Source: a virus (taxonomy: Duplodnaviria; Heunggongvirae; Uroviricota; Caudoviricetes). Taken from it: DNA of 64,000 bases. The stretch lies in IMG/VR virus record IMGVR_UViG_3300014489_000001, positions 1 to 64,000 of that record. The stretch is one strand, 5' to 3'. A program made the position numbers and the translations under genes. The stretch's first letter is position 1. Every line of letters starts with the position of its first letter. This document shows, piece after piece, positions 21,358-64,000 of this stretch. The notes under the pieces were generated by a model that was given only the letters and a program-made list of their open reading frames with translations, made no database searches and was not told the origin of the DNA.

Positions 21358-21628
21358 CCCTGTGTAGACGAATCAGTTTCCTGATTCTTGCCAACAAGAT
21401 CATCATCTTGTCTGGGTTGTACTTCATGGTGATAAGGTCTTCATCGACCTCGACTATGTTGCCGGAAGCAATCCTCTCACCACCTTTGACCACGTAATAT
21501 TTTGGGCCTACGAATTCCATGGTTGCACCTTCCTGCAACAATGGCATAGGATCGAAGACACGATACATAGTCAGTCTCCCGTCTTTGAAGTGCCCAGAAT
21601 CGTCGCCAGCGAAGATGCCGTGAATCAT
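21242..21628 (-). CDS. hypothetical protein (start trimmed to MIHGIFAGDD with GGAGGAAAA SD)
   Basis: track ORF 21242..21832 overlaps the DHH gene; internal ATG at 21628 gives a 4-nt overlap. Confidence 0.4.
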   Translation of the reverse strand: MIHGIFAGDDSGHFKDGRLTMYRVFDPMPLLQEGATMEFVGPKYYVVKGGERIASGNIVEVDEDLITMKYNPDKMMILLARIRKLIRLHRDGHPGVLPEIFQWLPEGYNEHCPVPATTQGESGLPGGI

Positions 21629-22488
21629 TTTTCCTCCACGTTTGGAGAATCTCCATGTCGTGGTCCAGTTATTGCGTCCAAGAATTCTTGGTGCCACGGA
21701 ACAGAGAACGAAGCAGCATGTGCATGCCCTCCTCCTCCATATAATTGTGCAATTGCAGAGACATCGATTCCCGTATCGTTGCTTGAACGAAGAGAATACA
21801 CGAATCGTTTTATACGATCTTGGTTGAACCATACTATGGCAAATGGACGACCAAGCCCTAACTCATGACCGATTTCACTTGCGAGAACTGTTGAGTTGAC
21901 ACTCATCACCTTGTGCCCATGGAATTCGATTTCGCGGGCCTGGGACACAGCCTGGCGAATGATCTTTTCTTGGTAGCGGATAATCGGTCGGCCTTCCTTG
22001 ACACACGCATCACGACCCATCAGCACAAACTTCTCGCAGTTGGCCAGTGAGAAAGCGTAGCTTTGGATGCAGGCGTCAACTTCTTTGGATTCGGGGAGTT
22101 CCCATTTCCAAAGATCACGATCTCGGATGTAGGGGAGAATCCACAACATCTCGCGATCAGGTTTGAGATACTTCCAAGCGAGTGTCGCGCCAGATTCATC
22201 GTTATCGTCGATATACGAAAACGGATAATCAGGCACGAAGCCTTCAAGTTGTTCGCGAGTGGATTTGTGGTGGTCGATGACCAGAAGGGATTTCGGATGT
22301 ACGCTTTTGAGGATCGCAATGTCTGGACAGTAGTCCACACAAACGATTGAGTCCTCATCCGAAATTTGAGGGAGTTGTTCCTGATACCGGACAGGTATCA
22401 GGTCGGCACCTTTGAAATATGATTCTGCGATGTACGCTGCGAAGATTCCGTCGGCGCAATTTGCGTGGAAGAGCAACTTAGTTGACAT
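21625..22488 (-). CDS. DHH-family phosphoesterase (NrnA/RecJ-like) with DHHA1 domain
   Basis: HANCADG (motif I), VIDHH (motif III), GGGGHAHA (DHHA1 GGGH). Confidence 0.7.
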   Translation of the reverse strand: MSTKLLFHANCADGIFAAYIAESYFKGADLIPVRYQEQLPQISDEDSIVCVDYCPDIAILKSVHPKSLLVIDHHKSTREQLEGFVPDYPFSYIDDNDESGATLAWKYLKPDREMLWILPYIRDRDLWKWELPESKEVDACIQSYAFSLANCEKFVLMGRDACVKEGRPIIRYQEKIIRQAVSQAREIEFHGHKVMSVNSTVLASEIGHELGLGRPFAIVWFNQDRIKRFVYSLRSSNDTGIDVSAIAQLYGGGGHAHAASFSVPWHQEFLDAITGPRHGDSPNVEEK

Positions 22489-23044
22489 GATTAAGTTCCT
22501 TCAAGTCGTTAAGGACTGCAAATTCACCAAAAAGTTCAGTCACAGCATTGTTGTATGCAATTGCTGCTTCTAACTCAGTGTTGAAAGTTCCAATCGTAAT
22601 CTGAACGCCATTTTCGTAGGTGTAGGCTTGATAACCTTTACCCATTGGTCGAATGCCACGAAATCGTGACTGGTTGTTTCTTTGTAATCGATTCCTTCGA
22701 TTTTGAGAAACTGTAGCCATACGTAGATTATCTTTTTGACAATCTGTTCTATCTCGATTCTTATGGTCTACTTGTTTACCATCTTCATAACGACCATCAC
22801 GTTTCATTATCTCTATGTGTAAATAGAGATCAACTCCATTTTCTTTTCGACGTGCATAATGCCCTGGAGTATACGTCCAAATCCAATGATTAAAGAAATC
22901 GAAATCATTGTCATCAATTTTGATTTCGACAAAATAATCCGTTATCAACGTCTTCATATTTCGTCGAACGGTTCTTCTGTATAACCCAAAGTGAGTAGAT
23001 GGTCGCAAAATTCGTACATCAGAGCAGTAGTTTTCTTGAACCAC
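22478..23044 (-). CDS. HNH homing endonuclease with AP2 domain (second copy)
   Basis: DHKNRDRTDCQKDNLR (HNH) plus C-terminal AP2-like GVQITIGTFNTELEAAIAYNNAV. Confidence 0.65.
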   Translation of the reverse strand: MVQENYCSDVRILRPSTHFGLYRRTVRRNMKTLITDYFVEIKIDDNDFDFFNHWIWTYTPGHYARRKENGVDLYLHIEIMKRDGRYEDGKQVDHKNRDRTDCQKDNLRMATVSQNRRNRLQRNNQSRFRGIRPMGKGYQAYTYENGVQITIGTFNTELEAAIAYNNAVTELFGEFAVLNDLKELNHVN

Positions 23045-23367
23045 TCTGACCTACGGTAGTGAAACGATTCCACTTGAGCATTGTTGAAATTTGGCCACGG
23101 AGCATTCCATCCTTCTGGTTTGCCAGGCCATACTTCTAGTGGACCGATTTTGGATTCCATCCAGGTTTCCATTGCAGCGTGCATATCGACGACCGGGCCA
23201 ATAAAGGCCCGGTCGTTAATGAGATAGATCATATCTCTCCCTTAAACGTGGTCGGGGGACGTTTCAATCCCCCGCAAAGGCTAATCAGCTTTGCTACCAG
23301 CAAACATCGTTGGGTGAATTACTTCCAATTAGATTGCCAAGCTCTAAGCCACCCGGACACCTGAAAA

Positions 23368-24792
23368 TCATTGGGACTCGCTGGTGCGAATGAAGTCGAT
23401 GATCGCTTCGGACCACCCGCTGATATGGGTGAAGTTGCCGTAGCCGATTCCATTCTTGTCAGCACTGATGTTGATCAGGTAGTTCTCGTCACCGAATGCT
23501 TCCGCGGCGTTGGGATCGCACTTTGCATTCATGCCGGTTGCACAATCCTGCTCATCCGTAATGACGATGACGCGAGCCGCTTCGCCGTGTTCCTGTTCGC
23601 TGACGTAATCCATGCACTGAGTCAAGAAGATGCCACCGTGGCCGATTTCAGATTCCATCTTCATCTGGGCGAAAATCTCACCCAGAGCGAAACCACGACG
23701 CGCCGGAACCTGCTTCGTGGCATGTTTTCGGCGTTCATCAGACCCAGCAGTCGCATAGATGACCGGGTCTTCGGCAATCTCACGAATGAGAATCGCCAAA
23801 GCACCAGCAGCGTCCAATCTGGTCAGGTCACTCTTCTGCGAAATCTGCTTGCCGTGCATGGAACCAGACACGTCTATGATTAGGACGGTCTTACCAGGCA
23901 GTTTTTCGACCTTGGCAACGCATCGAAGCATCATATCTTCGATCATCGGTTCCCATCGCGGGCAAGCACGAGCCGCCGAGATGAATCGAAAAGGCAGAAC
24001 GCGGTCGAGAGGAACGTGCTTCGCGTACTCACGAACCAGGCCGGCGTCCACGCCAGACTGTTCCATGTTGCGAAGATTCCGAATGAAGGCTAAAGCGTAG
24101 AGCTTCTCTTCACGCATCAACCGCTCGAACGTCTCTTTCTTGTCAGCACCCGCGGAAAGTTCCGTTTCCCAAGTGTCGGGCGTCTGGAGCGTGCCGGCGA
24201 CCAATTTGCCGTACAACGATTCCGGATGGCGAAGAAGAATTTTCTCGTGGCCGTCCTTGTATTTCCGAGTGTATTTCTTGGAACGGCCGTTGCCCTTCGG
24301 TCCCGGATTCGCGTGACACAGGAACAACACGTCTTTGAGCTTGATCGCGTTGTTCTGGTTGTCGTACTTCGCGAGACTGTACTCGTTGAAGTTTCCGAAA
24401 GCCGCAGCGAGACCCTTCTTGACCTGGGCCGCAATCGGACACTTGCCGTCTTTCCAGTAGATCGAGAGGAACTAGGCCAACTCGTCGGGCCGCTGAATGA
24501 TTTCAGGTAGGAGTTTGCTCAGTTGTCCCTTGTGAACCGGCAGGCGAGCCATCTCGCGTGCAATCAGAAGCGGAACGTGCCGGAGTTTCTGGACAGTACG
24601 AGCTTGAATTGCGATTGCCGAGACCCGATCTGCTGGGACTTTGGCAATCAGAGAGCCGATGCGGGCGGCGATCTCTTCACCGGATTCGTAGAAATTGTCT
24701 TCCCAAAGCATACACGCCATTACGGAACGCCGAAGCTGTTCCTCAGTGTTGACGCTCACCGCACGAGCGCCGCCATGTGTTTTCACCGGCAT
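23368..24792 (-). pseudogene. rsr: Ro60/TROVE-domain protein with C-terminal vWA domain (Rsr-like), interrupted by an in-frame TAG at 24469-24471; pseudogene or read-through
   Basis: N-terminal segment contains the TROVE hallmark MLWEDNFYE. After TAG the frame continues FLSIYWKDGKCPIAAQVKKGLAAAFGNFNEYSLAKYDNQNNAIKLKDVLFLCHANPGP into ORF 23368..24330, whose C-terminal half has a vWA-type MIDAS (LIIDVSGSM). Confidence 0.7.
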
Positions 24793-25051
24793 TTTCGGTT
24801 CCTCCAGATTAAGGGATATACCACAAAAGTTGCAGGGATTAAACGATTCAGGGAGACATCATCAAAAGAAGTACCTGAATCTTACGCCACTGCAAGACAG
24901 ATTCGGGGAATAATTGACTACGGTTATCCCAGGTGTCAGGGTTTACAGCCCTGATCCTTGGGACTTCACTAATCAGAGAAGTATCCGTTGTCTACGCCAC
25001 CGAAAGACAGATGACGGGAATTGACGATTTCAGTTTTGGCCCTCTCGGGCG

Positions 25052-25122
25052 GTCTTTTGCTCTACCTTGGTGAGCTACAGCCAACTTGCGTTGCTGTTGG
25101 GAGTCGAACCCAATACCTAAAG
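25052..25122 (-). ncRNA. circularly permuted tRNA-like module (3' half - linker - 5' half)
   Basis: minus strand: TCTTT-AGGTA-TTGGG-TTCGACT-CCCAA-CAGCAAC-gcaag-TTGGCTG-TA-GCTC-ACCAAGGTA-GAGC-A-AAAGA; anticodon-stem strands AAAGA/TCTTT pair across the permutation. Confidence 0.5.
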
Positions 25123-25317
25123 AAGTAACTGTAATCTTCGCCACGTCAAGACTAACGACTCCAAAGGATTTACGACCTGTTTTATAGCGTCGTGAAAAAA
25201 GCACCGGGGATTAATCGGCACAGTTATGTCCATTTAAGGACACTCTAAGCAAGAAGTAACTGTGATCCTATCGCCACCGGATTGCAGATGCAGGGATTTG
25301 TCGCTACAGGCTTTCTG

Positions 25318-25388
25318 ACCGCTGCTCTTACACTGAGCTATGATGTCCGATCAGGACACCAGTTGGAATCAAACCAACGACCCGCGGT
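25318..25388 (-). ncRNA. circularly permuted tRNA-like module
   Basis: minus strand: ACCGC-GGGTC-GTTGG-TTTGATT-CCAAC-TGGTGTC-ctgatcg-GACATCA-TA-GCTC-AGTGTAA-GAGC-A-GCGGT; acceptor 7 bp (one G.U), anticodon stem GCGGT/ACCGC. Confidence 0.55.
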
Positions 25389-26180
25389 TTTCTTTGAAGT
25401 AACTGTAACTACGCCACTGCAAGAATCAGACCAACAACTACGCCAGCAGCAAAAGCTGCTATGATTACCAGTAGTTCAAACAGCAGAAAACAACCACAAC
25501 TTTTGTTGATCTCTTTTTCAGTCGGAATCAGATGACCAAACATTGAGCTATCCATCGTGTCTCCTGGATGTGGGGATTATTCACTACGGGGTAGCAGTGT
25601 TGAAACTGCAACAGCTTTCGCTGTTCTAACCGAAGTAACCGTAAGTAACGCCACCACAAGATTAAAAGGCTCATGTTATCTGTTATTCACCTTCGACCTT
25701 CGCATCATGCTACTTCCGTGGCAGACCACGCCATGAGCCTGCACCGTTGCCCATCCTCGGTGTACGGTATCGGGGATTATGCGATTCAGTGCTTTTTAGA
25801 AGGAAGTAACTGAATCTAACGCCACCGATGATTTAAGAGGGTTTTGTTTACGCAGCTTATCCCTTCAAGTGAGGGTTGCCATAGATGGGTCCCCGCTGCG
25901 TGGGCTAGGCAGTTCATGTGGCCGGGTTTCCCCGGCCCCGCGAACAATCTAAGACCCTAACCATCATTAGAAAGATTCAAAAGTCCGGGAATAATTTAGC
26001 TTCGGTTTTTCGTGTTGATGGTAGAAGTAACCGAAACAATCGCCACGGAACTAGCGTAGGTGGTGAGTTGCTTTAGGCCAGGTTGTTACTCACAATCGCT
26101 GTCTGGCCACCTTTGGATTCGTGAGGGCGGCTACACGCCGCCCTCGGCTTAATCAACAACCTCGTGCCTCATGCTTCAGC

Positions 26181-26254
26181 GCGAGTGTCCTGGACCGGTC
26201 TAGACGATACAATCCTTGTGGGATTGCAATGGGATTTGAACCCATGTTTCTCGC
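26181..26254 (-). ncRNA. circularly permuted tRNA-like module
   Basis: minus strand: GCGAG-AAAC-ATGGG-TTCAAAT-CCCAT-TGCAATC-ccacaag-GATTGTA-TC-GTC-tagaccggtccag-GAC-A-CTCGC; acceptor 7 bp (one G.U), anticodon stem CTCGC/GCGAG; flanks form an imperfect bulged helix. Confidence 0.5.
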
Positions 26255-26364
26255 AGCTTTGAGCCAGGGATTTTGCGATCACGGCGGGCACTTTTAACAG
26301 AAGTAGCCGTAATCTGTCGCCACTGGTTTGCGATTCGATTCTTGCAAGTCTCTCTGCCTAGTCC

Positions 26365-26393
26365 ATTATACCATAAAAAAGGTATCCTGTCAA
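26365..26393 (-). promoter_or_regulatory. consensus sigma-70 promoter with extended -10 (TTGACA-17-TGgTATAAT) reading into the ncRNA array and rsr
   Basis: rc reads TTGACAggataccttttttatgGTATAATgg; shares the 16-nt block tccattataccataa with the promoter at 1489-1517. Confidence 0.6.
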
Positions 26394-26429
26394 GAGCAAA
26401 AGCAAGAATTATCGGAGGAAGATTCGATT

Positions 26430-26642
26430 TCAGATCGTAACTTCATAGTTAGTATCAGTAATCGCAGCAGGCACACCCTTGATGCACTTGTTGGGATCAA
26501 GGTCATTAGCGATACATTGCTGAATCGCCATGTCCAAATCCCCACACAAGCCGAAGGGTGTAATCCACCACACCTTGAAATCGATAATCTTTTCGACCTT
26601 CCCAGGTTCGATCTCGATTGTTCTATTGACTAGGTTGATCAT
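26430..26642 (-). CDS. hypothetical protein
   Basis: 70-aa ORF. Confidence 0.35.
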   Translation of the reverse strand: MINLVNRTIEIEPGKVEKIIDFKVWWITPFGLCGDLDMAIQQCIANDLDPNKCIKGVPAAITDTNYEVTI

Positions 26643-28408
26643 GATTTCGATTCCTCAAGAGCTTTTGCCAAAGCTAAGCCACTGGTGCCGAACATCAACA
26701 AATGAGCACACACAGAGACGATTAACTTTTTGCGTTTCACGTCCGATTCGTCACGCATCTTGTCAGCGTCGTCACGTTTCCGGAGAAGCACTTCACGTTC
26801 TTTTGACGCACGACTCAAGCATTCGTCGCGATTCTTCACGATAGCAGAGCGATCCGCGATGATTTCTGACACACGACTCTCTGCCGCCCTCTTCTCTCCA
26901 AGAAGACTTGAAATACGGCACTTGGATTGCTCAACCGATTCGCGAAGAGCATTTCGACTTTCGATCATCTTCGCCAATTCGGCTTTCTGGCGTTCAGTCT
27001 TAGCCGTAAGCTCGTTATTTATGGCATCGGTCTTTTCTGCGGTCTTCTTGAGTCGGTTTAATTCGACTTCAAGATTGTGACGTTCGCCGTCGATGTTGGC
27101 CGCAAGCCTCTTGCCGTCCAAGATTTCCGCTTCCAGATTGGAAATCTTATATGCCTCAGAAGATACTGCATCGCGGCTTTCAACAAGCCGCTTGTTTGCC
27201 CGTTCGGCACACTGCACAGCTTCCTCAAGGAAGTGAATCTTTCGATTCAAATCAGCAATCAGAGGGTCGTCCTCGATCTGGTTTTGCAGTTGGAGAATCC
27301 TGGTATTCTGTTGCTGCAATTCCGTTCGTTGGTTTTCAAATGAAGAACGAATGTTATTGGATTCTTTACGAATCCTGTTCAACTCTTGCTCAAGATCACG
27401 ATTCTGCTTATCAAAATCGTTGAGCTTATCGTTGGTGACCTTGTACCGCCCTTGCAGACTTTCGAGATTCTTTTCAAGACTTGTAATCTTCATCTTGGAA
27501 AATTCCAAGTCTTGAGCCAGACATTTCGAGAGTCGGAGTTGTTCATTCTCCGACTTGAGCGCCCTGAAATCGATATCTCGACGCTCCAACAAGGTAGCAC
27601 TATACAACGCTGCTGCCTTGTTCTCATGACAATCGATTTGAAGAGTAGCAATCGATTTAGCCTGATCAGCCAGACGATCACCCTGACTCTTGGTTCCTTC
27701 CACGAGGCGGTCGATCTCGATGGTCTTGCCGCGGATGACTTCCTCAAGACAACAAATCTGTTGGCGGTCTGAATTGTCGAGAAGATTCCCGATACGTGTA
27801 CTCGCAGAAAGAAGCTGATCGTCTTTCCTCTTCAACTCTGCCCGTAATAGCTCAATCTCTTTGATCTTGTCGTCAACACGAGTCTTCTCTTGCAAATGCT
27901 GTAGCGTTCGTTCCTTCAACTCAGCTTCTCGTTCGTGAACCAAATCAAGACGACACCGAGAAATCTTTTTCTCGTGATCAAGATTGGCTCTATTCGTCTC
28001 GAAAGAATCGAGCATAGCGTCTGATCGTTCAGCATCACGCTGATCCCATTCGTCGATCTCAGCCTGCAACTTCTTGACCAGGTTCTTGAGTTCCTCGTTC
28101 TCTGTTCTCAAGTTCAGAAACTGCGGGTACAGAATCTCCCGCGACGGCATAAGGTGGTACCGTAAGGTGAGGTCCGATAGTTGCTGCTGTAAATCCTTGT
28201 TGGTCTTTTTCTGCTCGTGCAACTCGTGGCTGCGTTCCGTCAGCTTTCGCATATGGGATTTGAGTCGCTCCCTCATGCCCAGGACAGCTTTCTCCAGGTT
28301 GATGATTATGAGTGATTTGCTCATCGGGAATGTACCTTCCAAAGTTAGAATGTGATTTCCTTGCCATGTGCTTGAAACAGCCAAGACACACATAATACTT
28401 GTAGCCAT
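26639..28408 (-). CDS. long coiled-coil protein (SMC/tape-measure-like heptad-rich), start probably near MSKSLII (~28325)
   Basis: 589-aa ORF dominated by E/K/L/Q/R heptads; no enzymatic motifs. Confidence 0.45.
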   Translation of the reverse strand: MATSIMCVLAVSSTWQGNHILTLEGTFPMSKSLIIINLEKAVLGMRERLKSHMRKLTERSHELHEQKKTNKDLQQQLSDLTLRYHLMPSREILYPQFLNLRTENEELKNLVKKLQAEIDEWDQRDAERSDAMLDSFETNRANLDHEKKISRCRLDLVHEREAELKERTLQHLQEKTRVDDKIKEIELLRAELKRKDDQLLSASTRIGNLLDNSDRQQICCLEEVIRGKTIEIDRLVEGTKSQGDRLADQAKSIATLQIDCHENKAAALYSATLLERRDIDFRALKSENEQLRLSKCLAQDLEFSKMKITSLEKNLESLQGRYKVTNDKLNDFDKQNRDLEQELNRIRKESNNIRSSFENQRTELQQQNTRILQLQNQIEDDPLIADLNRKIHFLEEAVQCAERANKRLVESRDAVSSEAYKISNLEAEILDGKRLAANIDGERHNLEVELNRLKKTAEKTDAINNELTAKTERQKAELAKMIESRNALRESVEQSKCRISSLLGEKRAAESRVSEIIADRSAIVKNRDECLSRASKEREVLLRKRDDADKMRDESDVKRKKLIVSVCAHLLMFGTSGLALAKALEESKS

Positions 28409-28957: not shown

Positions 28958-29029
28958 TCGGCCTGAAAGGACTTGAACCTTCAACCTCCTGAGTATCAGT
29001 CAGGCGCTCTGCCATTGAGCTACAGGCCA
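28958..29029 (-). tRNA. tRNA-Ile (anticodon GAT)
   Basis: rc TGGCCTG-TA-GCTCAATGGCAGAGC-G-CCTGA-CTGATAC-TCAGG-AGGTT-GAAGG-TTCAAGT-CCTTT-CAGGCCG-A. Confidence 0.8.
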
Positions 29030-29043
29030 GTTGAGTCGAACAT

Positions 29044-29115
29044 TCGCTCTGCCGGGATTCGAACCCGGAACCGTCGAGATATAAGCCCGACACTCTGCCA
29101 TTGAGCTACAGAGCA
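29044..29115 (-). tRNA. tRNA with anticodon TAT (Ile, AUA decoder)
   Basis: rc TGCTCTG-TA-GCTC-AATGGCA-GAGT-G-TCGGG-CTTATAT-CTCGA-CGGTT-CCGGG-TTCGAAT-CCCGG-CAGAGCG-A. Confidence 0.7.
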
Positions 29116-29116
29116 G

Positions 29117-29189
29117 TGAACCCGGCGGGAATCGAACCCGCAACATTCTGATTAAGAGTCAGACGCTCTACCAATTGAGCTACGGATTC
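29117..29189 (-). tRNA. tRNA-Lys (anticodon CTT)
   Basis: rc GAATCCG-TA-GCTCAATTGGTAGAGC-G-TCTGA-CTCTTAA-TCAGA-ATGTT-GCGGG-TTCGATT-CCCGC-CGGGTTC-A. Confidence 0.8.
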
Positions 29190-29308
29190 AAATTTTGGTT
29201 TGAAGATTGGTTCGATACCTTCCGCACAGCCACGTAGTATATAGACTGGTGGCCAATCCGGTTTAATTGTTGTCAGTCTAACAGAAGTCGGAAACATGAA
29301 TCACCAAA

Positions 29309-29380
29309 TGGGACCGGAGGGAATCGAACCCTCATACACCGGATTAAAAGTCCGAGACTCTACCATTGAGTTACAGTCCC
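29309..29380 (-). tRNA. tRNA-Lys (anticodon TTT)
   Basis: rc GGGACTG-TA-ACTC-AATGGTA-GAGT-C-TCGGA-CTTTTAA-TCCGG-TGTAT-GAGGG-TTCGATT-CCCTC-CGGTCCC-A. Confidence 0.8.
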
Positions 29381-29446
29381 GGAAGGATTCGAACCTTCAA
29401 CCCTCGGATTCAGAATCCGATGCTCTACCGTTGAGCTACAGGACAT
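29381..29446 (-). tRNA. tRNA-Gln (anticodon CTG)
   Basis: rc ..TGTCCTG-TA-GCTCAACGGTAGAGC-A-TCGGA-TTCTGAA-TCCGA-GGGTT-GAAGG-TTCGAAT-CCTTC-CGGGAC..; 3' acceptor abuts or overlaps the next tRNA. Confidence 0.7.
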
Positions 29447-29519
29447 CAGCGCCGGTTGGATTCGAACCAACGACCAGCGGATTCAAAGTCCGCCGCTCTT
29501 CCATCTGAGCTACAGCGCA
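29447..29519 (-). tRNA. tRNA-Gln (anticodon TTG)
   Basis: rc TGCGCTG-TA-GCTCAGATGGAAGAGC-G-GCGGA-CTTTGAA-TCCGC-TGGTC-GTTGG-TTCGAAT-CCAAC-CGGCGCT-G. Confidence 0.75.
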
Positions 29520-29631
29520 ATAAAAGAGTTGTGATTAGTGGTGGTAGCCGCAGTTGCCTGGTGCGTCCTGACTAATCACATACAGCCGTTCTCAAACGTA
29601 TTGTCTCATCGTTATTTACCGGCTTACTCAG

Positions 29632-29705
29632 CAGTACCAACGGGACTTGAACCCGTAACCTTCCGGTTGACAACCGGATGCTCTAACCAATTGAGCTATG
29701 GTACT
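29632..29705 (-). tRNA. tRNA-Asp (anticodon GTC)
   Basis: rc AGTACCA-TA-GCTCAATTGGTTAGAGC-A-TCCGG-TTGTCAA-CCGGA-AGGTT-ACGGG-TTCAAGT-CCCGT-TGGTACT-G. Confidence 0.8.
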
Positions 29706-29891: not shown

Positions 29892-30914
29892 TTAAACACG
29901 AACGAGTACCTTGGTGCCGCGGGGAAGAATCCGATTCACAGATCGCGACTGCACGAACACGTCGTAATTGCCGTGGTTGCCCGGATCGACCTGGGCGTAT
30001 TGGCCTGCCGGAAGACCAATCAATCCACGAGCTTCCGGACCACCGTAGACGGACTTCTTGCCCTTTTCCTTGACGAGGACTTCCTTGGTGGGTTGCACCT
30101 TCTCCGGCTTCATCAGCTGGTAGAAAGCATTGCCGCGCACATACTCTTCGCCAGTCTTGGTTTCAACGAAAGGCCGAATGATGTCCTCGGTGATGACCTT
30201 GAACTCCCGGAAGGACTTGCTCAAGTCCGTAAGCAATCGCTTAGCGTTGCTCGGAACCTTGCTCGTGACCTTCTGGAAGAAGTTCTTCGTCGCTCGCTGA
30301 CCAGACGTGCGGCCAGCGTAGAAGTTGCCCATGGCGTCTTGAGTATCAGAGAACGTCTCGCGGGTGCCCTCGTCGGTTTGTTCCCATTCCTGGACGTTAT
30401 CCTCAGGAATCCCGAACTTACAGCAGAAGGGAGTTTTCTGACCCTTCGGCACCTGGAAGGTAAAGGTCCAGTTACCGCGTTGCTGATGCTGACGGAACAG
30501 CGATTGCAGTTGCTGCTGGTTGTACCGTACCGAATGGTTCTCCTGGCCGTCAGTGATGACGAGCAGGACAAAACTGTCGTCGAAAGTGACGCCAGTTTTA
30601 ACTTCATCAAGTTGTTCCGTGGCGAAGCCGACGGCGTCTAACAGAGCCGTGTAGCCCTCGGTGCGATAATCGTAATCATTCAGCGGCTCGAGGAATTCCG
30701 GTCGAGCGTTGATGAATCGCGGAGCGTGGACGTGGGTGCTGAAAGTCAAGAAAGAAACGTAGTTTTGTTGACCATCCGGCGGATTCCGGAACTTCTCGGT
30801 CAGGGCGTTGTATGCCTGAACCGTTGCCCGTTTGATCTGGGTCATGGAATCCGATGCATCAAGGACGACGCAAATGAAGTTGCGAAGAATCTTCTTTTTG
30901 TTAAGCCGAGCCAT
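29892..30914 (-). CDS. von Willebrand factor A (vWA) domain protein
   Basis: MIDAS motif VVLDASDSM near the N-terminus; 340 aa. Confidence 0.6.
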   Translation of the reverse strand: MARLNKKKILRNFICVVLDASDSMTQIKRATVQAYNALTEKFRNPPDGQQNYVSFLTFSTHVHAPRFINARPEFLEPLNDYDYRTEGYTALLDAVGFATEQLDEVKTGVTFDDSFVLLVITDGQENHSVRYNQQQLQSLFRQHQQRGNWTFTFQVPKGQKTPFCCKFGIPEDNVQEWEQTDEGTRETFSDTQDAMGNFYAGRTSGQRATKNFFQKVTSKVPSNAKRLLTDLSKSFREFKVITEDIIRPFVETKTGEEYVRGNAFYQLMKPEKVQPTKEVLVKEKGKKSVYGGPEARGLIGLPAGQYAQVDPGNHGNYDVFVQSRSVNRILPRGTKVLVRV

Positions 30915-37701: not shown

Positions 37702-38055
37702 TTACATTGCCTTGAAATAAAGCTGAGTAACGTATTCCGTTTCAGTGAAGCCAGGGTATGTTTCCTTCATAACCTGTAGCAATCCTTCGTAAGTACGGCA
37801 AATTGGATCGTGTTCAAAGCACAGTAACTCTTTGTTCAAATCGATGAATCGAGTGTACTGCACTGTGAGAATTTTGTAATCCTTGTCAACAAGAGTGAAA
37901 GACATACTTTCACCAGATTCAAACCACGCCTTGATCCATTTGGACCCACGACGCACGGTAAGGTTCACATCATCCCTGAACACAGGATTGTTGAACAGTA
38001 AAGGAATCAACATCAGTCTTTCTCCAGATAAGTAGCTCCGACACACTTGAAACAC
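37702..38055 (-). CDS. hypothetical protein
   Basis: 117-aa ORF. Confidence 0.4.
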   Translation of the reverse strand: MFQVCRSYLSGERLMLIPLLFNNPVFRDDVNLTVRRGSKWIKAWFESGESMSFTLVDKDYKILTVQYTRFIDLNKELLCFEHDPICRTYEGLLQVMKETYPGFTETEYVTQLYFKAM

Positions 38056-39242
38056 ACACGACCTACGTGCATGTCTCGACGCTCAACCATCGGCTTGACA
38101 ACACAACCTTCTCGATAATGATTCGCACTTCGCCACTTGCTGGGTCCATCCGAGTGACCCACGACGCACGAAAACGAGTAGGGAACCGCTTTGTCGAGAA
38201 TCGGTACCCACGGTAGTTGATCAGCAAGATTCCTCGCAGCAATAGGGTCAGCAAATTCGCCATCAAGCATGATGTCGAATGCAGCGAACATTAACGGTTC
38301 ATTATCGGTCGCACCGTAGCGAAGATTCTGAACCTGACCAAACACTTCGCCGTATACTACGGCACCTGGATGGTTGATTAACCAAAACTCAAGACATGGT
38401 GTTGCACTGAGAGCATTCCACCAAAGATTACGTTGCTTCGGTTTGTTGTGCAACCTGTCGAAAATCTCTTGGACACGTGTCTCATCGACTTCCCTGAACT
38501 CAGGAGGTTGACTTGGAACAAGTCTTACAAATTGTGCTGGTGGCATTTCAGGCGTAGCTGTTGCGTCCTTCTTGAAGACGTGCTGGCGCAGGAACTCAAG
38601 AGTGATGTGATCGTAAGAAGGATATTCTTTCTTCCACTCATTACGCGACCCACAATGAATCTGCCCATCACTATAGACATAACGAGCCGAGCAACCATGA
38701 ATCTTTTCCGTAATCCACACCGGCTCACCCTCGGTGAACAAGTTATGATACTTACGGAATGCATCCACGTCGTACTTGACCGTGAATACAGTCGGGCCTT
38801 TGGCAGTTTCACCACCAGTAATCAGGTTGTCACTCTGGACACCTGGAAGCGGTGGCTCGTAATGCGTGACGCCTAGTTGCGTAGCAACGTCGTCACCGAG
38901 ATTACTGCCTTCCGGAGCAGGGACCATGAGGCCGTAGCTAACGACTTTGCGAAGCTTGATCGCTTTAACTCGGTGTGTTCCGTCGGCTTTTGGCTTAAGG
39001 AAGCTGAATTCTGGTCGACTGGTATCGACAACGGAATCCGGTGGGAGGTAAGCGCCCTGTGCCACGGCTTGCCAGTCTGCGGTTCGGACGACACAGGTGT
39101 AACCACCAAAGACGTTGACGATGGATAGTGAATCAGCATTAGGGTGTTTCTCCAACACGATTGATACGACTTCAACCTGATGCGTAGAATTACTCATTAC
39201 CACTCCCAAGCCATTAAAGGTGAAACGATTTCCGCTTTCCAC
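38013..39242 (-). CDS. Rnl2-type ATP-dependent RNA ligase fused to an N-terminal tRNA-binding (Myf/Trbp111-like OB) domain
   Basis: N-terminus VEVVSIVLEKHPNADSLSIVNVFGG (tRNA_bind HPNADxL); ligase motif I TEKIHGCSARY (KxHG) and motif IV EGCVVKP. Confidence 0.6.
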   Translation of the reverse strand: MESGNRFTFNGLGVVMSNSTHQVEVVSIVLEKHPNADSLSIVNVFGGYTCVVRTADWQAVAQGAYLPPDSVVDTSRPEFSFLKPKADGTHRVKAIKLRKVVSYGLMVPAPEGSNLGDDVATQLGVTHYEPPLPGVQSDNLITGGETAKGPTVFTVKYDVDAFRKYHNLFTEGEPVWITEKIHGCSARYVYSDGQIHCGSRNEWKKEYPSYDHITLEFLRQHVFKKDATATPEMPPAQFVRLVPSQPPEFREVDETRVQEIFDRLHNKPKQRNLWWNALSATPCLEFWLINHPGAVVYGEVFGQVQNLRYGATDNEPLMFAAFDIMLDGEFADPIAARNLADQLPWVPILDKAVPYSFSCVVGHSDGPSKWRSANHYREGCVVKPMVERRDMHVGRVCFKCVGATYLEKD

Positions 39243-63642: not shown

Positions 63643-63716
63643 GGTGACTGAACTCAAAAAGGTGCGAGACCAGATTGTGAATCTGGTATAAGCGGGTTCG
63701 ACTCCCGCCAGTCACA
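63643..63716 (+). tRNA. tRNA-His (anticodon GTG) with encoded G-1
   Basis: g-GTGACTG-AA-CTC..GAG-A-CCAGA-TTGTGAA-TCTGG-TATAA-GCGGG-TTCGACT-CCCGC-CAGTCAC-A; short 3-bp D stem. Confidence 0.7.
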
Positions 63717-63756
63717 CTGAAAGTCCCCAAAAGGTTCTTTCATCTCGGCTCCCTCC

Positions 63757-63779
63757 CCTAGACTCGGTGTCTAGGGGAT
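63757..63779. other. 9-bp perfect hairpin between tRNA-His and tRNA-Thr (CCCCTAGAC-tcggt-GTCTAGGGG)
   Basis: inverted repeat seen directly. Confidence 0.4.
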
Positions 63780-63781
63780 TT

Positions 63782-63854
63782 GCCGCGTTAGCTCAGTTGG
63801 AAGAGCAGGGGTTTTGTAAACCCCAGGTCCTCAGTTCGAGTCTGAGACGCGGCT
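63782..63854 (+). tRNA. tRNA-Thr (anticodon TGT)
   Basis: GCCGCGT-TA-GCTCAGTTGGAAGAGC-A-GGGGT-TTTGTAA-ACCCC-AGGTC-CTCAG-TTCGAGT-CTGAG-ACGCGGC-T. Confidence 0.85.
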
Positions 63855-64000
63855 CTCATGCCCTATCGTCTTACCTTTGACAAGGCAGCCGGTAGGGCCA
63901 GCGGTGGGTAAAAGCGTCGGCGGGTCTATACCACCACGTTGATTACGAATCGAGAGGACCTTGTCAGGGTCCATGTCGTATAGGACGGTGATCCTCCCAA

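What the first reader, a model, noticed from the sequence alone, without database searches (positions are those of the whole stretch)
23368..26393. Ro60/TROVE gene directly downstream of a 1.5-kb tandem array of tRNA-mimicking structured RNAs under one consensus sigma-70 promoter: a phage-encoded Ro60/Y-RNA-like module of unusual size
Seen directly: the 1.5 kb upstream of the TROVE+vWA ORF, on the same strand, has no credible ORF and is packed with hairpins plus T-arm and D-arm consensus blocks. A textbook TTGACA-17-TGgTATAAT promoter (26365-26393 rc) reads through the whole array into rsr. Established knowledge: bacterial Ro60 orthologs (Rsr) are encoded next to Y RNAs such as YrlA, which carry a tRNA-like domain (T-arm, closed acceptor-like stem, D-arm) attached to the Ro-binding stem. 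The permuted order found here (3' anticodon strand, variable loop, T-arm, acceptor, linker, acceptor, D-arm, 5' anticodon strand) is exactly what that architecture predicts. Inference: this is a Y-RNA-like array. Known loci carry one or two Y RNAs; eight or nine tandem units next to a single rsr would be unusual. An Rnl2 RNA ligase with a tRNA-binding domain (38013..39242) and a 9-tRNA complement echo the Salmonella rsr-yrlBA-rtcBA arrangement in function.
Basis: partly seen in the sequence, partly recalled or inferred. Interest (0 to 1): 0.9.

Follow-up and report, generated by a model that had tools for sequence, protein, structure and literature searches.

The report
Phage Ro60 with nine Y RNAs
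A phage carries, behind one strong promoter, nine different small structured RNAs of the type that bind the ring-shaped RNA-quality-control protein Ro60, followed by the Ro60 gene itself; that is about three times more such RNAs than in any of about 130 other Ro60 loci I surveyed.

Summary
On the minus strand a perfect sigma-70 promoter (26393-26365) is followed by 1.5 kb with no conserved ORF. This stretch holds nine units (24829-26329), then an RBS and a TROVE+vWA (Ro60/Rsr) gene (24792-23368).

Every unit has the same closing module: a variable 4-6 bp stem, a bulged U, GG:CC, a GGCG(A/U)(A/U) loop, a 7-8 bp helix and UUACUUC. This matches the published Y-RNA signature (GNCGAA motif plus YUAY).

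The apical modules differ. Only U5 and U7 are YrlA-type tRNA mimics, and there is one further tRNA-like element without a Y stem. The other seven carry short loops or hairpins.

A covariance model of the closing module hits only this array in the window. It gives 243 further hits in 106 of 126 viral and bacterial rsr loci, all on the rsr strand. Those loci have 1-5 hits each, whereas the window's own phage clade has 6-10 model hits (7-11 units by all methods), with module types conserved across the clade.

Rfam's YrlA model scores below its threshold. The rsr copy here has a premature TAG at an invariant Glu codon.

Verdict: a lineage-specific expansion of a known system, and a new variant of a known kind. 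RNA processing, Ro60 binding and function are all inferred.

The parts
26365..26393 (-). Consensus sigma-70 promoter: -35 TTGACA (26393-26388), 17-nt spacer ending in TGG, -10 TATAAT (26370-26365).
   Evidence: 12 of 12 matches, TG present. Sequence. Conserved in L043 and L044 (A2).
26261..26329 (-). Unit U1 (type A). Short Y-like RNA with the invariant apical loop CUUCUGUUAAAAGUGCC.
   Evidence: R1 59.4 bits, E 1.4e-12. Fold z -3.3. Orthologues in all six clade genomes, with a covarying helix and an invariant loop.
26178..26258 (-). tRNA-like element without a Y stem. It has a T-arm (AUGGGUUCAAAUCCCAU), a closed acceptor-like hairpin and a D-arm (CGUCUAGACCGGUCCAGGACA), closed by GCUGCGAG/CUCGCGCU. 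It lacks the GUGGCG...AAUCCC module.
   Evidence: Folds (z -2.3). It occupies the position of a complete tRNA-like unit in L043 (6867-6999), which has a similar D-arm. It gave no Rfam hit at E<10.
25981..26052 (-). Unit U2 (type B). Short Y-like RNA.
   Evidence: R1 65.9 bits. z -2.1. Orthologues in L044, L047 and L001.
25767..25831 (-). Unit U3 (type C). Short Y-like RNA.
   Evidence: R1 65.3 bits. z -3.4. Orthologues in L043 and L044.
25567..25660 (-). Unit U4. Y-like RNA with a module of two hairpins.
   Evidence: R1 41.9 bits, E 2.9e-8. z -2.5.
25287..25423 (-). Unit U5. YrlA-type Y RNA whose module is a tRNA-like domain (T-arm, closed acceptor-like stem, D-arm AUAGCUCAGUGUAAGAGCA).
   Evidence: Rfam YrlA at 25320-25386: 27.7 bits, E 5.7e-3, model positions 23-85. 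5' and 3' motifs and stem. z -2.7. With filters off, R1 reaches only E 0.43 on the 5' half.
25201..25283 (-). Unit U6 (type F). Y-like RNA with a conserved hairpin (5-bp stem, loop UUAAAU).
   Evidence: R1 47.2 bits. z -2.2. Orthologues in five genomes.
25010..25150 (-). Unit U7 (type G). YrlA-type Y RNA and the only unit with an exact GNCGAAG motif (GGCGAAG). It has a tRNA-like domain plus an extra GCCC-GAGA-GGGC hairpin.
   Evidence: Rfam YrlA at 25052-25121: 32.8 bits, E 1.9e-4. Its orthologues L047 6936-7060 and L001 4702-4795 match the whole YrlA model, positions 1-114. The T-arm and acceptor-like stems covary in seven units (A4). z -2.9.
24900..25006 (-). Unit U8 (type H). Y-like RNA with two hairpins; the second is capped by a 7-nt loop CUGUAAA.
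   Evidence: R1 52.8 bits. z -3.4. The same hairpin and loop recur in L043_7816, L047_6657 and L001_3098, with covarying stems.
24829..24896 (-). Unit U9 (type I). Short Y-like RNA.
   Evidence: R1 67.4 bits, E 1.5e-14. z -3.9. Orthologues in L044, L047 and L001.
24801..24805 (-). Shine-Dalgarno sequence GGAGG, 8 nt before the rsr ATG.
   Evidence: Sequence.
23368..24792 (-). rsr (Ro60 orthologue, TROVE + vWA/MIDAS). It would encode 474 aa if read through, but is interrupted by TAG at 24474-24472.
   Evidence: The TAG replaces a Glu that is invariant in 11 homologues. It is also present in a second contig, L048.
25661..25766 (-). Spacer S3, a conserved non-Y structured element. The long-range stem GGCUCAUG...CAUGAGCC shows a compensatory change in L043 (GGCUCGUG...CACGAGCC).
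   Evidence: Fold. Alignment A2.
25832..25980 (-). Spacer S2, with conserved hairpins (CGCAGCGG...GCUGCG and GGCCGGG-GAAA-CCCGGCC) between U2 and U3.
   Evidence: Fold. Blocks conserved in A2.

Best explanation
This is a phage Ro60 (Rsr) operon whose 1.5-kb leader is a polycistronic array of nine Y-RNA genes.

Shown by the sequence:
- Host sigma-70 RNA polymerase would start at the consensus promoter.
- No intrinsic terminator is predicted before rsr.
- Each unit can close into the same module: a variable stem, a bulged U, GG:CC, a GGCG(A/U)(A/U) loop, a 7-8 bp helix and a UUAC junction.
- Each unit presents a different apical module.

Inferred from established Ro60/Y-RNA biology:
- The precursor is cut into individual RNAs of about 65-140 nt. 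Candidate cleavage sites are the short AUCUGUCUU-like linkers, the tRNA-like domains and, in relatives, the interleaved tRNA genes.
- Each RNA binds one Ro60 ring through the common module.
- The variable module acts as the effector arm. It would tether Ro60 to different partners: single-stranded loops to the S1/KH domains of an exoribonuclease such as PNPase, and tRNA-like domains to tRNA-binding enzymes. It could also gate access to the ring.

The phage would thereby create a set of differently specialised Ro60 RNPs that reshape or protect structured RNA (tRNA, rRNA) during infection. This sits alongside its own nine tRNAs, an RNA ligase and a DHH phosphoesterase.

In this particular genome the rsr copy carries a nonsense codon. 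Here the RNAs would need amber suppression, a host Ro60 or a co-infecting relative to act.
For: Unit anatomy, found nowhere else in the window.

Covariation. On 21 short units, 89.7% of cells are paired against 27-55% when the partner columns are slid. There are 43 double-sided changes against 14.3 in shuffles (0 of 500 shuffles reach the observed value).

Link to rsr. Model R1 gives 107 hits in 39 of 46 viral rsr loci and 136 hits in 67 of 80 bacterial rsr loci. All 243 hits are on the rsr strand and almost all lie upstream. R1 also hits next to rsr in cultured phages, including CcrColossus, which PMC12135203 (citing Chen 2014) names among phages with Ro60 homologues and Y-like RNAs.

Published signature. 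PMC4201824 describes a 5' GNCGAAN0-1G motif plus YUAY. The units have GGCG(A/U)(A/U)N0-2G plus UUAC, and U7 has the exact GGCGAAG.

Rfam YrlA. It matches U5, U7 and their orthologues with E from 1e-2 to 4e-6, and several matches span the whole model.

tRNA-like stems covary.

Conservation. The promoter and the unit order are conserved in phages whose Rsr is 83-85% identical. Module types are conserved down to 69% Rsr identity, with helices that change and loops that do not.

The protein is full-length homologous to phiLo Ro60, which binds two upstream Y-like RNAs in vitro (PMC12135203).

In Listeria phage CKA15, the three most highly transcribed regions lie within 2 kb upstream of an Rsr-like gene, on the same strand (PMC12282133).
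Against: - There are no expression, processing or binding data for this phage.
- No unit reaches the Rfam YrlA gathering score (at most 32.8 bits here and 43 in relatives, against 69). Rfam Y_RNA gave nothing.
- Seven units lack the exact CGAA motif.
- rsr is interrupted here, so the module may be decaying in this genome.
- R1 was built from this clade and its E-values are rough.
- R1 misses units with long modules, so counts per locus are lower bounds. The contrast with other loci could therefore be somewhat smaller than it appears.
- The partners of the modules are entirely inferred.
Confidence: 0.75

Rival explanations
1. The units are decoys or sponges that act without the phage's own Ro60. 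The phage would flood the cell with RNAs carrying the host-type Ro60-binding module, tRNA-like domains and anticodon-loop-like hairpins. These would sequester host Rsr, its nuclease partners, or tRNA-directed defence nucleases.
For: The array and its promoter are intact while rsr carries a nonsense codon, in two contigs. The same closing module occurs next to chromosomal rsr genes of Acidobacteriota and other bacteria, so a host Ro60 could plausibly recognise the phage RNAs. The promoter is maximally strong. A Ro60-like phage protein was reported to counter a defence system (PMC11482910).
Against: All five related phages keep an intact rsr beside their arrays. The nonsense codon is a single G-to-T change with no further decay, so it looks recent or accidental. 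The host is unknown.
Confidence: 0.12
2. The units are cis-acting sites in the rsr 5' leader rather than separate RNAs. Ro60 would bind its own mRNA leader to autoregulate translation or stability.
For: All nine units and rsr lie in one predicted transcription unit with no terminator between them. In most loci the units sit immediately upstream of rsr.
Against: In relatives, units also lie downstream of rsr (L044, L045). In L047 and L001 they are spread over 3-4 kb among protein and tRNA genes. Nine different conserved apical modules are not needed for autoregulation. Known Y RNAs are stable, separate RNAs (PMC4201824).
Confidence: 0.08
3. The region is a graveyard of degenerate tRNA genes or a repeat family with no RNA function.
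For: T-arm and D-arm blocks are present, a tRNA cluster lies 2.6 kb upstream, and one tRNA-like element lacks the Y stem.
Against: The shared module is not tRNA-like. The stems covary. Loops stay conserved while the helices around them change. The element is tied to the rsr strand in 243 of 243 hits.
Confidence: 0.03

Closest known systems
YrlA / YrlB of Salmonella Typhimurium and the YrlA family (Rfam RF02553; Chen et al. 2014, PMC4201824; structure 6CU1, bioRxiv 10.1101/312249)
   Same: The RNAs are encoded beside rsr on the same strand. The 5' and 3' ends pair. They carry a 5' GNCGAA-like motif and a YUAY junction. U5 and U7 have the permuted tRNA-like effector domain (T-arm, closed acceptor-like stem, D-arm). 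The short units resemble YrlB in lacking it.
   Different: There are nine units per locus, in one compact array upstream of rsr. Scores are less than half the Rfam gathering score. Most units have GGCGU(A/U) rather than CGAA. Seven have short, non-tRNA modules of several conserved types. There is no rtcBA operon.
Thermus phage phiLo Ro60 with Yrl1 and Yrl2 (PMC12135203; PDB 9KOP, 9L5Y)
   Same: It is the closest solved protein (E 1e-31 over the full length). It is a phage Ro60 with Y-like RNAs directly upstream. Binding was shown in vitro, and a ternary complex formed with host PNPase.
   Different: It has two RNAs rather than nine. I could not test R1 on phiLo because the record was not retrieved.
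Deinococcus radiodurans Rsr / Yrn1 / PNPase (RYPER)
   Same: It provides the model for the mechanism: the Y RNA stem binds the Ro60 ring and the other module tethers an exoribonuclease (as summarised in 10.1101/312249).
   Different: It is a bacterial, stress-induced system. There is no sequence-level match to Yrn1 here. I recall from memory, not checked, that several small RNAs are encoded upstream of rsr in that species.
Y-like RNAs of cultured phages (mycobacteriophages, CcrColossus and Bacillus phage G in Chen 2014; candidate ncRNAs of Listeria phage CKA15, PMC12282133)
   Same: These are phage rsr genes with adjacent Y-like RNAs. R1 detects two units upstream of the CcrColossus rsr, three in Brevundimonas phage Gurke and one in Xanthomonas phage MET23-P3.
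   Different: They have 0-3 units per locus. No cultured phage has an Rsr more than 47% identical to that of the window's clade.
Metazoan Y RNAs and nematode sbRNAs
   Same: They share the overall design: a closing stem with a single-nucleotide bulge bound by Ro60, and a variable loop that binds other proteins.
   Different: They are Pol III genes transcribed individually. There was no Rfam Y_RNA hit here.

Membership tests
Bacterial/phage Y RNA (Ro60-associated ncRNA, general definition) | Encoded next to, and on the same strand as, a Ro60/Rsr gene | tested here: met
   The nine units lie 37-1537 nt upstream of the rsr ATG on the same strand. The unit model hits the rsr strand in 243 of 243 cases in 126 other loci.
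Bacterial/phage Y RNA (Ro60-associated ncRNA, general definition) | 5' and 3' ends pair into a stem carrying the conserved Ro60-binding motif (GNCGAAN0-1G, or CGAA in an internal loop or bulged helix) | tested here: inconclusive
   The closing stem with a bulged U and GG:CC is present in 9 of 9 units and covaries. The motif is GGCG(A/U)(A/U)N0-2G. Only U7 matches GNCGAAG exactly (motif definition from PMC4201824).
Bacterial/phage Y RNA (Ro60-associated ncRNA, general definition) | A second, variable effector module | tested here: met
   There are nine different apical modules, and their types are conserved across six genomes.
Bacterial/phage Y RNA (Ro60-associated ncRNA, general definition) | Physically bound by Ro60/Rsr in vivo or in vitro | not testable with these tools
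   Needs RIP/CLIP or EMSA.
YrlA (Rfam RF02553) | Score at or above the Rfam gathering threshold (69 bits) | tested here: not met
   There were no hits at the gathering threshold. The best scores are 32.8 bits (U7) and 27.7 bits (U5), and 28-43 bits in relatives.
YrlA (Rfam RF02553) | tRNA-like effector domain: T-arm, closed acceptor-like stem-loop and D-arm in that order, between the strands of the Ro60-binding stem | tested here: met
   Met for U5 and U7 only. The YrlA model aligns to its positions 23-88. The T and acceptor-like stems covary and the D-arm is invariant in seven related units. It is not met for U1-U4, U6, U8 and U9.
YrlA (Rfam RF02553) | Conserved YUAY (the UA kink) at the junction after the 5' strand | tested here: met
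   UUAC, CUAC, AUAC or GUAC is found in all nine units. The feature is described in PMC4201824 and 10.1101/312249.
Ro60/Rsr protein | TROVE (HEAT-repeat ring) domain followed by a vWA domain with a MIDAS DxSxS motif | tested here: met
   Pfam TROVE E 4e-11 and VWA_2 E 2.4e-3 (18.9 bits, below Pfam's cut-off of 27). DVSGS is invariant in homologues. The profile matches 9KOP/9L5Y (E 1e-31), 9NEN and 1YVP.
Ro60/Rsr protein | Intact open reading frame | tested here: not met
   An in-frame TAG at 24474-24472 replaces an invariant Glu. There is no amber suppressor tRNA in the window and no sign of TAG reassignment in other genes.
tRNA | Cloverleaf with free acceptor ends and an anticodon arm (ARAGORN or Rfam RF00005) | tested here: not met
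   No tRNA call falls inside 24829-26329. The tRNA-like domains are circularly permuted, with a closed acceptor stem.

The most novel reading that the evidence does not exclude
The array may be a natural library of adaptor RNAs that programme one Ro60 ring for different, specific RNA or protein targets, some of them individual tRNA species.

Two conserved modules hint at this:
- Type A (U1). Its loop contains UUAAAAG, which is invariant in all six genomes. This is the exact complement of the anticodon loop CUUUUAA of tRNA-Lys(UUU), including the phage's own copy.
- Type H (U8). It displays a hairpin whose 7-nt loop CUGUAAA is, from memory, the anticodon loop of tRNA-Tyr(GUA).

If real, phage Y RNAs would capture particular tRNAs, or act as decoys for the anticodon nucleases that attack them. 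That would make this an RNA-specified counter-defence system built on Ro60.
Probability: 0.1. Interest if true: 0.85.

Novelty: new variant of a known kind. Interest (0 to 1): 0.62.

Why it matters
What the variable 'effector' half of bacterial Y RNAs does is still largely unknown. For YrlA the partner has not been identified (10.1101/312249).

A phage lineage that keeps 7-11 Y RNAs has, in effect, done the experiment. Each RNA has the same Ro60-binding module but a different, conserved apical module. Pull-downs with each module would list the partners of Ro60 RNPs.

The same analysis shows that a simple closing-module model finds unannotated Y-like RNAs beside rsr. It does so in most viral loci, in Acidobacteriota and other bacterial loci, and in cultivable phages (Xanthomonas MET23-P3, Brevundimonas Gurke, Caulobacter CcrColossus). 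Rfam's gathering threshold reported no YrlA in the 13 such loci I checked. This gives tractable systems, and suggests that multi-copy Y-RNA arrays are the rule in this Rsr subfamily rather than the exception.

Tried and rejected
1. Rfam at gathering thresholds found only tRNAs in the window. It found no YrlA in 13 other loci that have R1 hits. Rfam therefore cannot be used to annotate these units.

2. Stop-codon reassignment or suppression as an explanation for the TAG in rsr is rejected. Homologues have an invariant Glu (GAG) at that position. None of the nine tRNAs has a CTA anticodon; the extra one at 63644-63716 reads as His-GTG. No other long minus-strand gene is split by TAG.

3. Assembly error as the explanation for the TAG is unlikely but not excluded. 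The same split gene is in a second JGI contig.

4. My first partner-finding regex, which required at least 4 contiguous pairs, missed a third of the 3' strands. It was relaxed to 3 pairs.

5. The MAFFT alignment of short units mis-registers the lower part of helix 2. Pair 3:72 was dropped after the count showed 14 of 21 cells unpaired.

6. R1 does not recover the two long tRNA-like units even with filters off. They rest on the motif, the fold and the YrlA model.

7. RNAalifold on the tRNA-like units predicted a spurious GUGGC/GUUAC pairing, which I ignored.

8. YrlA 'hits' between adjacent true tRNA genes in L043, L044 and L047 are the artefact that Chen et al. described. They were discarded.

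9. The 48-aa ORF in spacer S4 is not conserved.

10. crAss001 has no R1 hit within 5 kb of its TROVE gene.

11. The Sim/Wolin reviews (PMC10870794, PMC6047535) and the supplementary tables of Chen 2014 are not held. The published maximum number of Y RNAs per locus could therefore not be checked.

12. Outside the clade, the type A and type H loop motifs are rare, so the anticodon idea remains weak.


Full report
**What is in the window**

All features lie on the minus strand. A perfect sigma-70 promoter sits at 26393-26365: TTGACA, a 17-nt spacer ending in TG-G, then TATAAT. It is the only 12-of-12 site in 22500-27000. It is conserved in two related phages (alignment A2).

The next 1.5 kb has no conserved ORF. 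It contains nine copies of GTGGCG-N9-12-[AT]ACTTC. This motif occurs nowhere else in the 64-kb window on either strand. Each copy is followed 50-125 nt later by AATCCC or ATTCCC, and then by the complement of the 3-5 variable bases that precede its own GTGGCG.

RNAfold gives all nine units the same closure: a variable stem, a bulged U, GG:CC, an internal loop that begins with CG(A/U)(A/U), and a 7-8 bp helix that ends just before UUACUUC. Z-scores against dinucleotide shuffles range from -2.1 to -3.9.

A GGAGG ribosome-binding site (24805-24801) and the ORF 24792-23368 follow. No intrinsic terminator is predicted in between. Two weak terminator-like sites were found, against 4.9 expected by chance.

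**The protein**

The ORF matches Pfam TROVE (E 4e-11), plus a weak VWA_2 hit (E 2.4e-3, below Pfam's cut-off). It has thousands of homologues of 455-480 aa, several labelled '60 kDa SS-A/Ro ribonucleoprotein' by their source. A profile of it and 11 homologues matches, over its full length, the Ro60 of Thermus phage phiLo (9KOP/9L5Y, E 1e-31). The profile also matches vertebrate Ro60 (9NEN, 1YVP). The MIDAS motif DVSGS is invariant among homologues.

An in-frame TAG lies at 24474-24472, where all 11 aligned homologues have Glu, so it is a single G-to-T change from GAG. The same split gene occurs in a second JGI contig. The window holds no amber suppressor tRNA, and no other long gene is split by TAG. 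I read this as a recent nonsense mutation or variant, not as recoding.

**Are the units Y RNAs?**

Chen et al. 2014 (PMC4201824) define bacterial Y RNAs of the YrlA type by four features:
- position next to rsr on the same strand;
- a 5' GNCGAAN0-1G motif thought to contact Ro60;
- a conserved YUAY;
- a tRNA-like domain made of a T-arm, a closed acceptor-like hairpin and a D-arm.

The units here have GGCG(A/U)(A/U)N0-2G, with an exact GGCGAAG in U7. UUAC, CUAC, AUAC or GUAC follows in all nine.

Rfam's YrlA model matches the tRNA-like cores of U7 (25052-25121, 32.8 bits, E 1.9e-4) and U5 (25320-25386, 27.7 bits, E 5.7e-3). In relatives it matches orthologous units over the whole model (positions 1-114) at 28-43 bits. 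All of these scores are below the gathering score of 69, so by Rfam's own rule none is a YrlA member.

In an alignment of seven tRNA-like units, the T-arm and acceptor-like stems covary and the D-arm is invariant. The other seven units of the window have no tRNA-like domain. Their modules are 15-25 nt loops or one or two hairpins.

A third tRNA-like element lies at 26178-26258. Its D-arm is CGUCUAGACCGGUCCAGGACA, and it lacks the Y-type closing module. It sits where the relative L043 has a complete tRNA-like unit with a similar D-arm.

**Covariation and specificity of the closing module**

I aligned 21 short units from six genomes (A3). The proposed structure pairs 89.7% of cells, against 27-55% when partner columns are slid by 1-3. 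It shows 43 cells changed on both sides, against 14.3 in shuffles, and 0 of 500 shuffles reach the observed value.

A covariance model of this alignment (R1) finds seven of the nine window units at E from 1e-14 to 3e-8. It finds nothing else significant in the window, even with filters off.

In 46 viral contigs chosen only for encoding an Rsr homologue, R1 gives 107 hits in 39 loci. In 80 genome contigs, mostly Acidobacteriota and at 45-52% Rsr identity, it gives 136 hits in 67 loci. All 243 hits are on the rsr strand and nearly all lie upstream of it.

This strand and position bias is independent of how the model was built. It is the strongest evidence that the unit is functionally tied to Ro60.

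R1 also hits beside rsr in cultured phages: Xanthomonas MET23-P3 (53.7 bits), Brevundimonas Gurke (three hits), Microcystis Mvi-JY20, Ralstonia RsoM2USA and Caulobacter CcrColossus. PMC12135203, citing Chen 2014, names CcrColossus among the phages with Ro60 homologues and Y-like RNAs. Rfam at gathering thresholds reports no YrlA in 13 of these loci.

**Is nine unusual?**

R1 hits per locus are 1-5 in bacterial loci (median 2) and 1-3 in viral loci outside the window's clade, with one locus at 5.

The five relatives closest to the window by Rsr identity (69-85%) have 6-10 R1 hits. They have 7-11 units when the motif and the long units are also counted.

So the expansion is real, and it is a property of a phage lineage rather than of this contig alone. 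The arrangement varies across the lineage:
- compact arrays behind the conserved promoter (window, L043, L044);
- units on both sides of rsr (L045);
- units spread over 3-4 kb and interleaved with small protein genes and true tRNA genes (L047, L001).

Counts are lower bounds, because R1 misses units with long modules.

I found no paper in the held library that describes arrays of this size. The two key reviews and the supplementary tables of Chen 2014 are not held.

**Module types**

Clustering the apical modules of 56 units shows recurrent types shared across the clade.

Type A (U1) occurs in all six genomes. Its loop CUUCUGUUAAAAGUGCC is almost invariant, while the helix beneath it changes by compensatory substitutions. 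Types B (U2), F (U6), H (U8), I (U9) and the tRNA-like type G (U7) behave in the same way. A conserved loop over a covarying helix is the signature of selection on specific recognition surfaces. It argues that the nine RNAs are not redundant copies.

**Context**

The window is a phage replication and nucleotide-metabolism region. It holds an RNA ligase (PF09414 with an N-terminal OB fold, 38013-39242), ribonucleotide reductase, a family A DNA polymerase, an SNF2 helicase, a primase and a DNA ligase.

Seven tRNAs lie at 28958-29705, and two more at 63644-63855.

A DHH/DHHA1 phosphoesterase (21625-22488) lies downstream of rsr. It is separated from rsr by a small ORF and an HNH endonuclease. In L047 its orthologue (57% identity) directly follows rsr, and L045 has one too.

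No cultured phage has an Rsr more than 47% identical to that of the window's clade. The host is unknown.

**Mechanism**

The sequence shows one promoter, nine foldable units with a common closing module, and an rsr gene with its own RBS.

The rest is inferred from established Ro60 biology (Chen 2013/2014 as summarised in 10.1101/312249; phiLo). The transcript would be processed into separate RNAs. Each would bind a Ro60 ring through the common module. Its apical module would then tether the ring to a partner, or gate it.

Possible processing cues are the short conserved linkers (AUCUGUCUU-like) between abutting units, RNase P at the tRNA-like domains and, in relatives, the flanking tRNAs. In Listeria phage CKA15, the three most abundantly transcribed regions lie just upstream of an Rsr-like gene, which fits with high expression of such arrays.

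Because rsr is broken here while the array is intact, a decoy role or a role that depends on the host Ro60 is a serious rival.

**Verdict**

This is a known kind of system (phage Ro60 plus Y RNAs) in a new, strongly expanded and diversified form. It is useful mainly as a natural library for working out what Y-RNA effector modules do.

Noticed in passing
window 24472-24474 (minus strand): There is a premature TAG in rsr at a codon that is Glu in all 11 aligned homologues. The same split gene is present in a second contig (L048). The window has no suppressor tRNA and there is no sign of TAG reassignment.
   Followed up: yes
window 26178-26258 (minus strand): A tRNA-like element (T-arm, closed acceptor-like hairpin, D-arm) lies directly after U1 and lacks the Y-type closing module. 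From memory, its D-arm resembles that of tRNA-Glu. L043, L045, L047 and L001 carry complete Y units with a related D-arm.
   Followed up: partly
window 26261-26329 (U1) and 29309-29380 (tRNA-Lys-UUU): The invariant type A loop contains UUAAAAG. This is the exact complement of the anticodon loop CUUUUAA of the phage's own tRNA-Lys(UUU). A rough estimate puts the chance of such a 7-mer match at a few percent.
   Followed up: partly
window 24900-25006 (U8); also L043 7816-7928, L047 6657-6766, L001 3098-3211, L120 ~4337, L055 ~4764: A conserved hairpin has a 7-nt loop CUGUAAA on a covarying stem. From memory, this is identical to the anticodon loop of bacterial tRNA-Tyr(GUA). Two bacterial rsr loci have the same loop upstream of rsr.
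   Followed up: partly
window 25661-25766, 25832-25980 and 26058-26110 (minus strand): The spacers between units contain other conserved structured elements that lack the Y signature and have no Rfam match. One example is the stem GGCUCAUG...CAUGAGCC, which shows a compensatory change in L043.
   Followed up: partly
window 25409-25555 (minus strand): A 48-aa ORF has a GGAGA Shine-Dalgarno sequence and a hydrophobic C-terminal half (MDSSMFGHLIPTEKEINKSCGCFLLFELLVIIAAFAAGVVVGLILAVA). It lies between U4 and U5 and overlaps the start of U5. It is absent from L043 and L044.
   Followed up: partly
window 21625-22488 and 22478-23044; L047 9525-10331; L045 10493-11293: A DHH/DHHA1 phosphoesterase is syntenic with rsr in the clade (57% identity to the L047 copy, which directly follows rsr). 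In the window an HNH endonuclease gene and a small ORF sit between the two. It is a candidate nuclease partner.
   Followed up: partly
L001 1389-1460 and 5113-5185; L047 3633-3704, 3968-4039 and 7152-7225: In two relatives, true tRNA genes abut Y-like units within the array. This suggests co-transcription and tRNA-type end processing.
   Followed up: no
L049-L128 (mostly Acidobacteriota / Terriglobia contigs): Chromosomal rsr genes of this subfamily are preceded by 1-5 R1-type units on the same strand. In the 13 loci I checked, Rfam at gathering thresholds annotates none of them as YrlA.
   Followed up: partly
window 63644-63716 (+): Rfam finds a tRNA here (54.3 bits) that ARAGORN does not. 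Its anticodon loop reads UUGUGAA (His-GTG). Its D-arm region looks atypical.
   Followed up: partly
window 29892-30914; L047 808-1851; possibly L043 4001-5044, L044 1941-3002 and L045 3225-4235: A second, separate vWA-domain protein of about 340 aa (PF00092) lies upstream of the tRNA cluster and the array in the window and in L047. Genes of similar size sit in the same relative position in the other relatives, but they have no Pfam hit on record.
   Followed up: no
L133 (Bacteroides phage crAss001) 5810-6716: The crAss001 TROVE gene is followed by about 900 nt without annotation. R1 finds nothing within 5 kb, so any Y RNA there would be of a different type.
   Followed up: no
window 26639-28408 (minus strand): A 589-aa protein lies between the tRNA cluster and the array promoter. 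By eye its sequence looks like a coiled coil. It has no Pfam or PHROG match.
   Followed up: no
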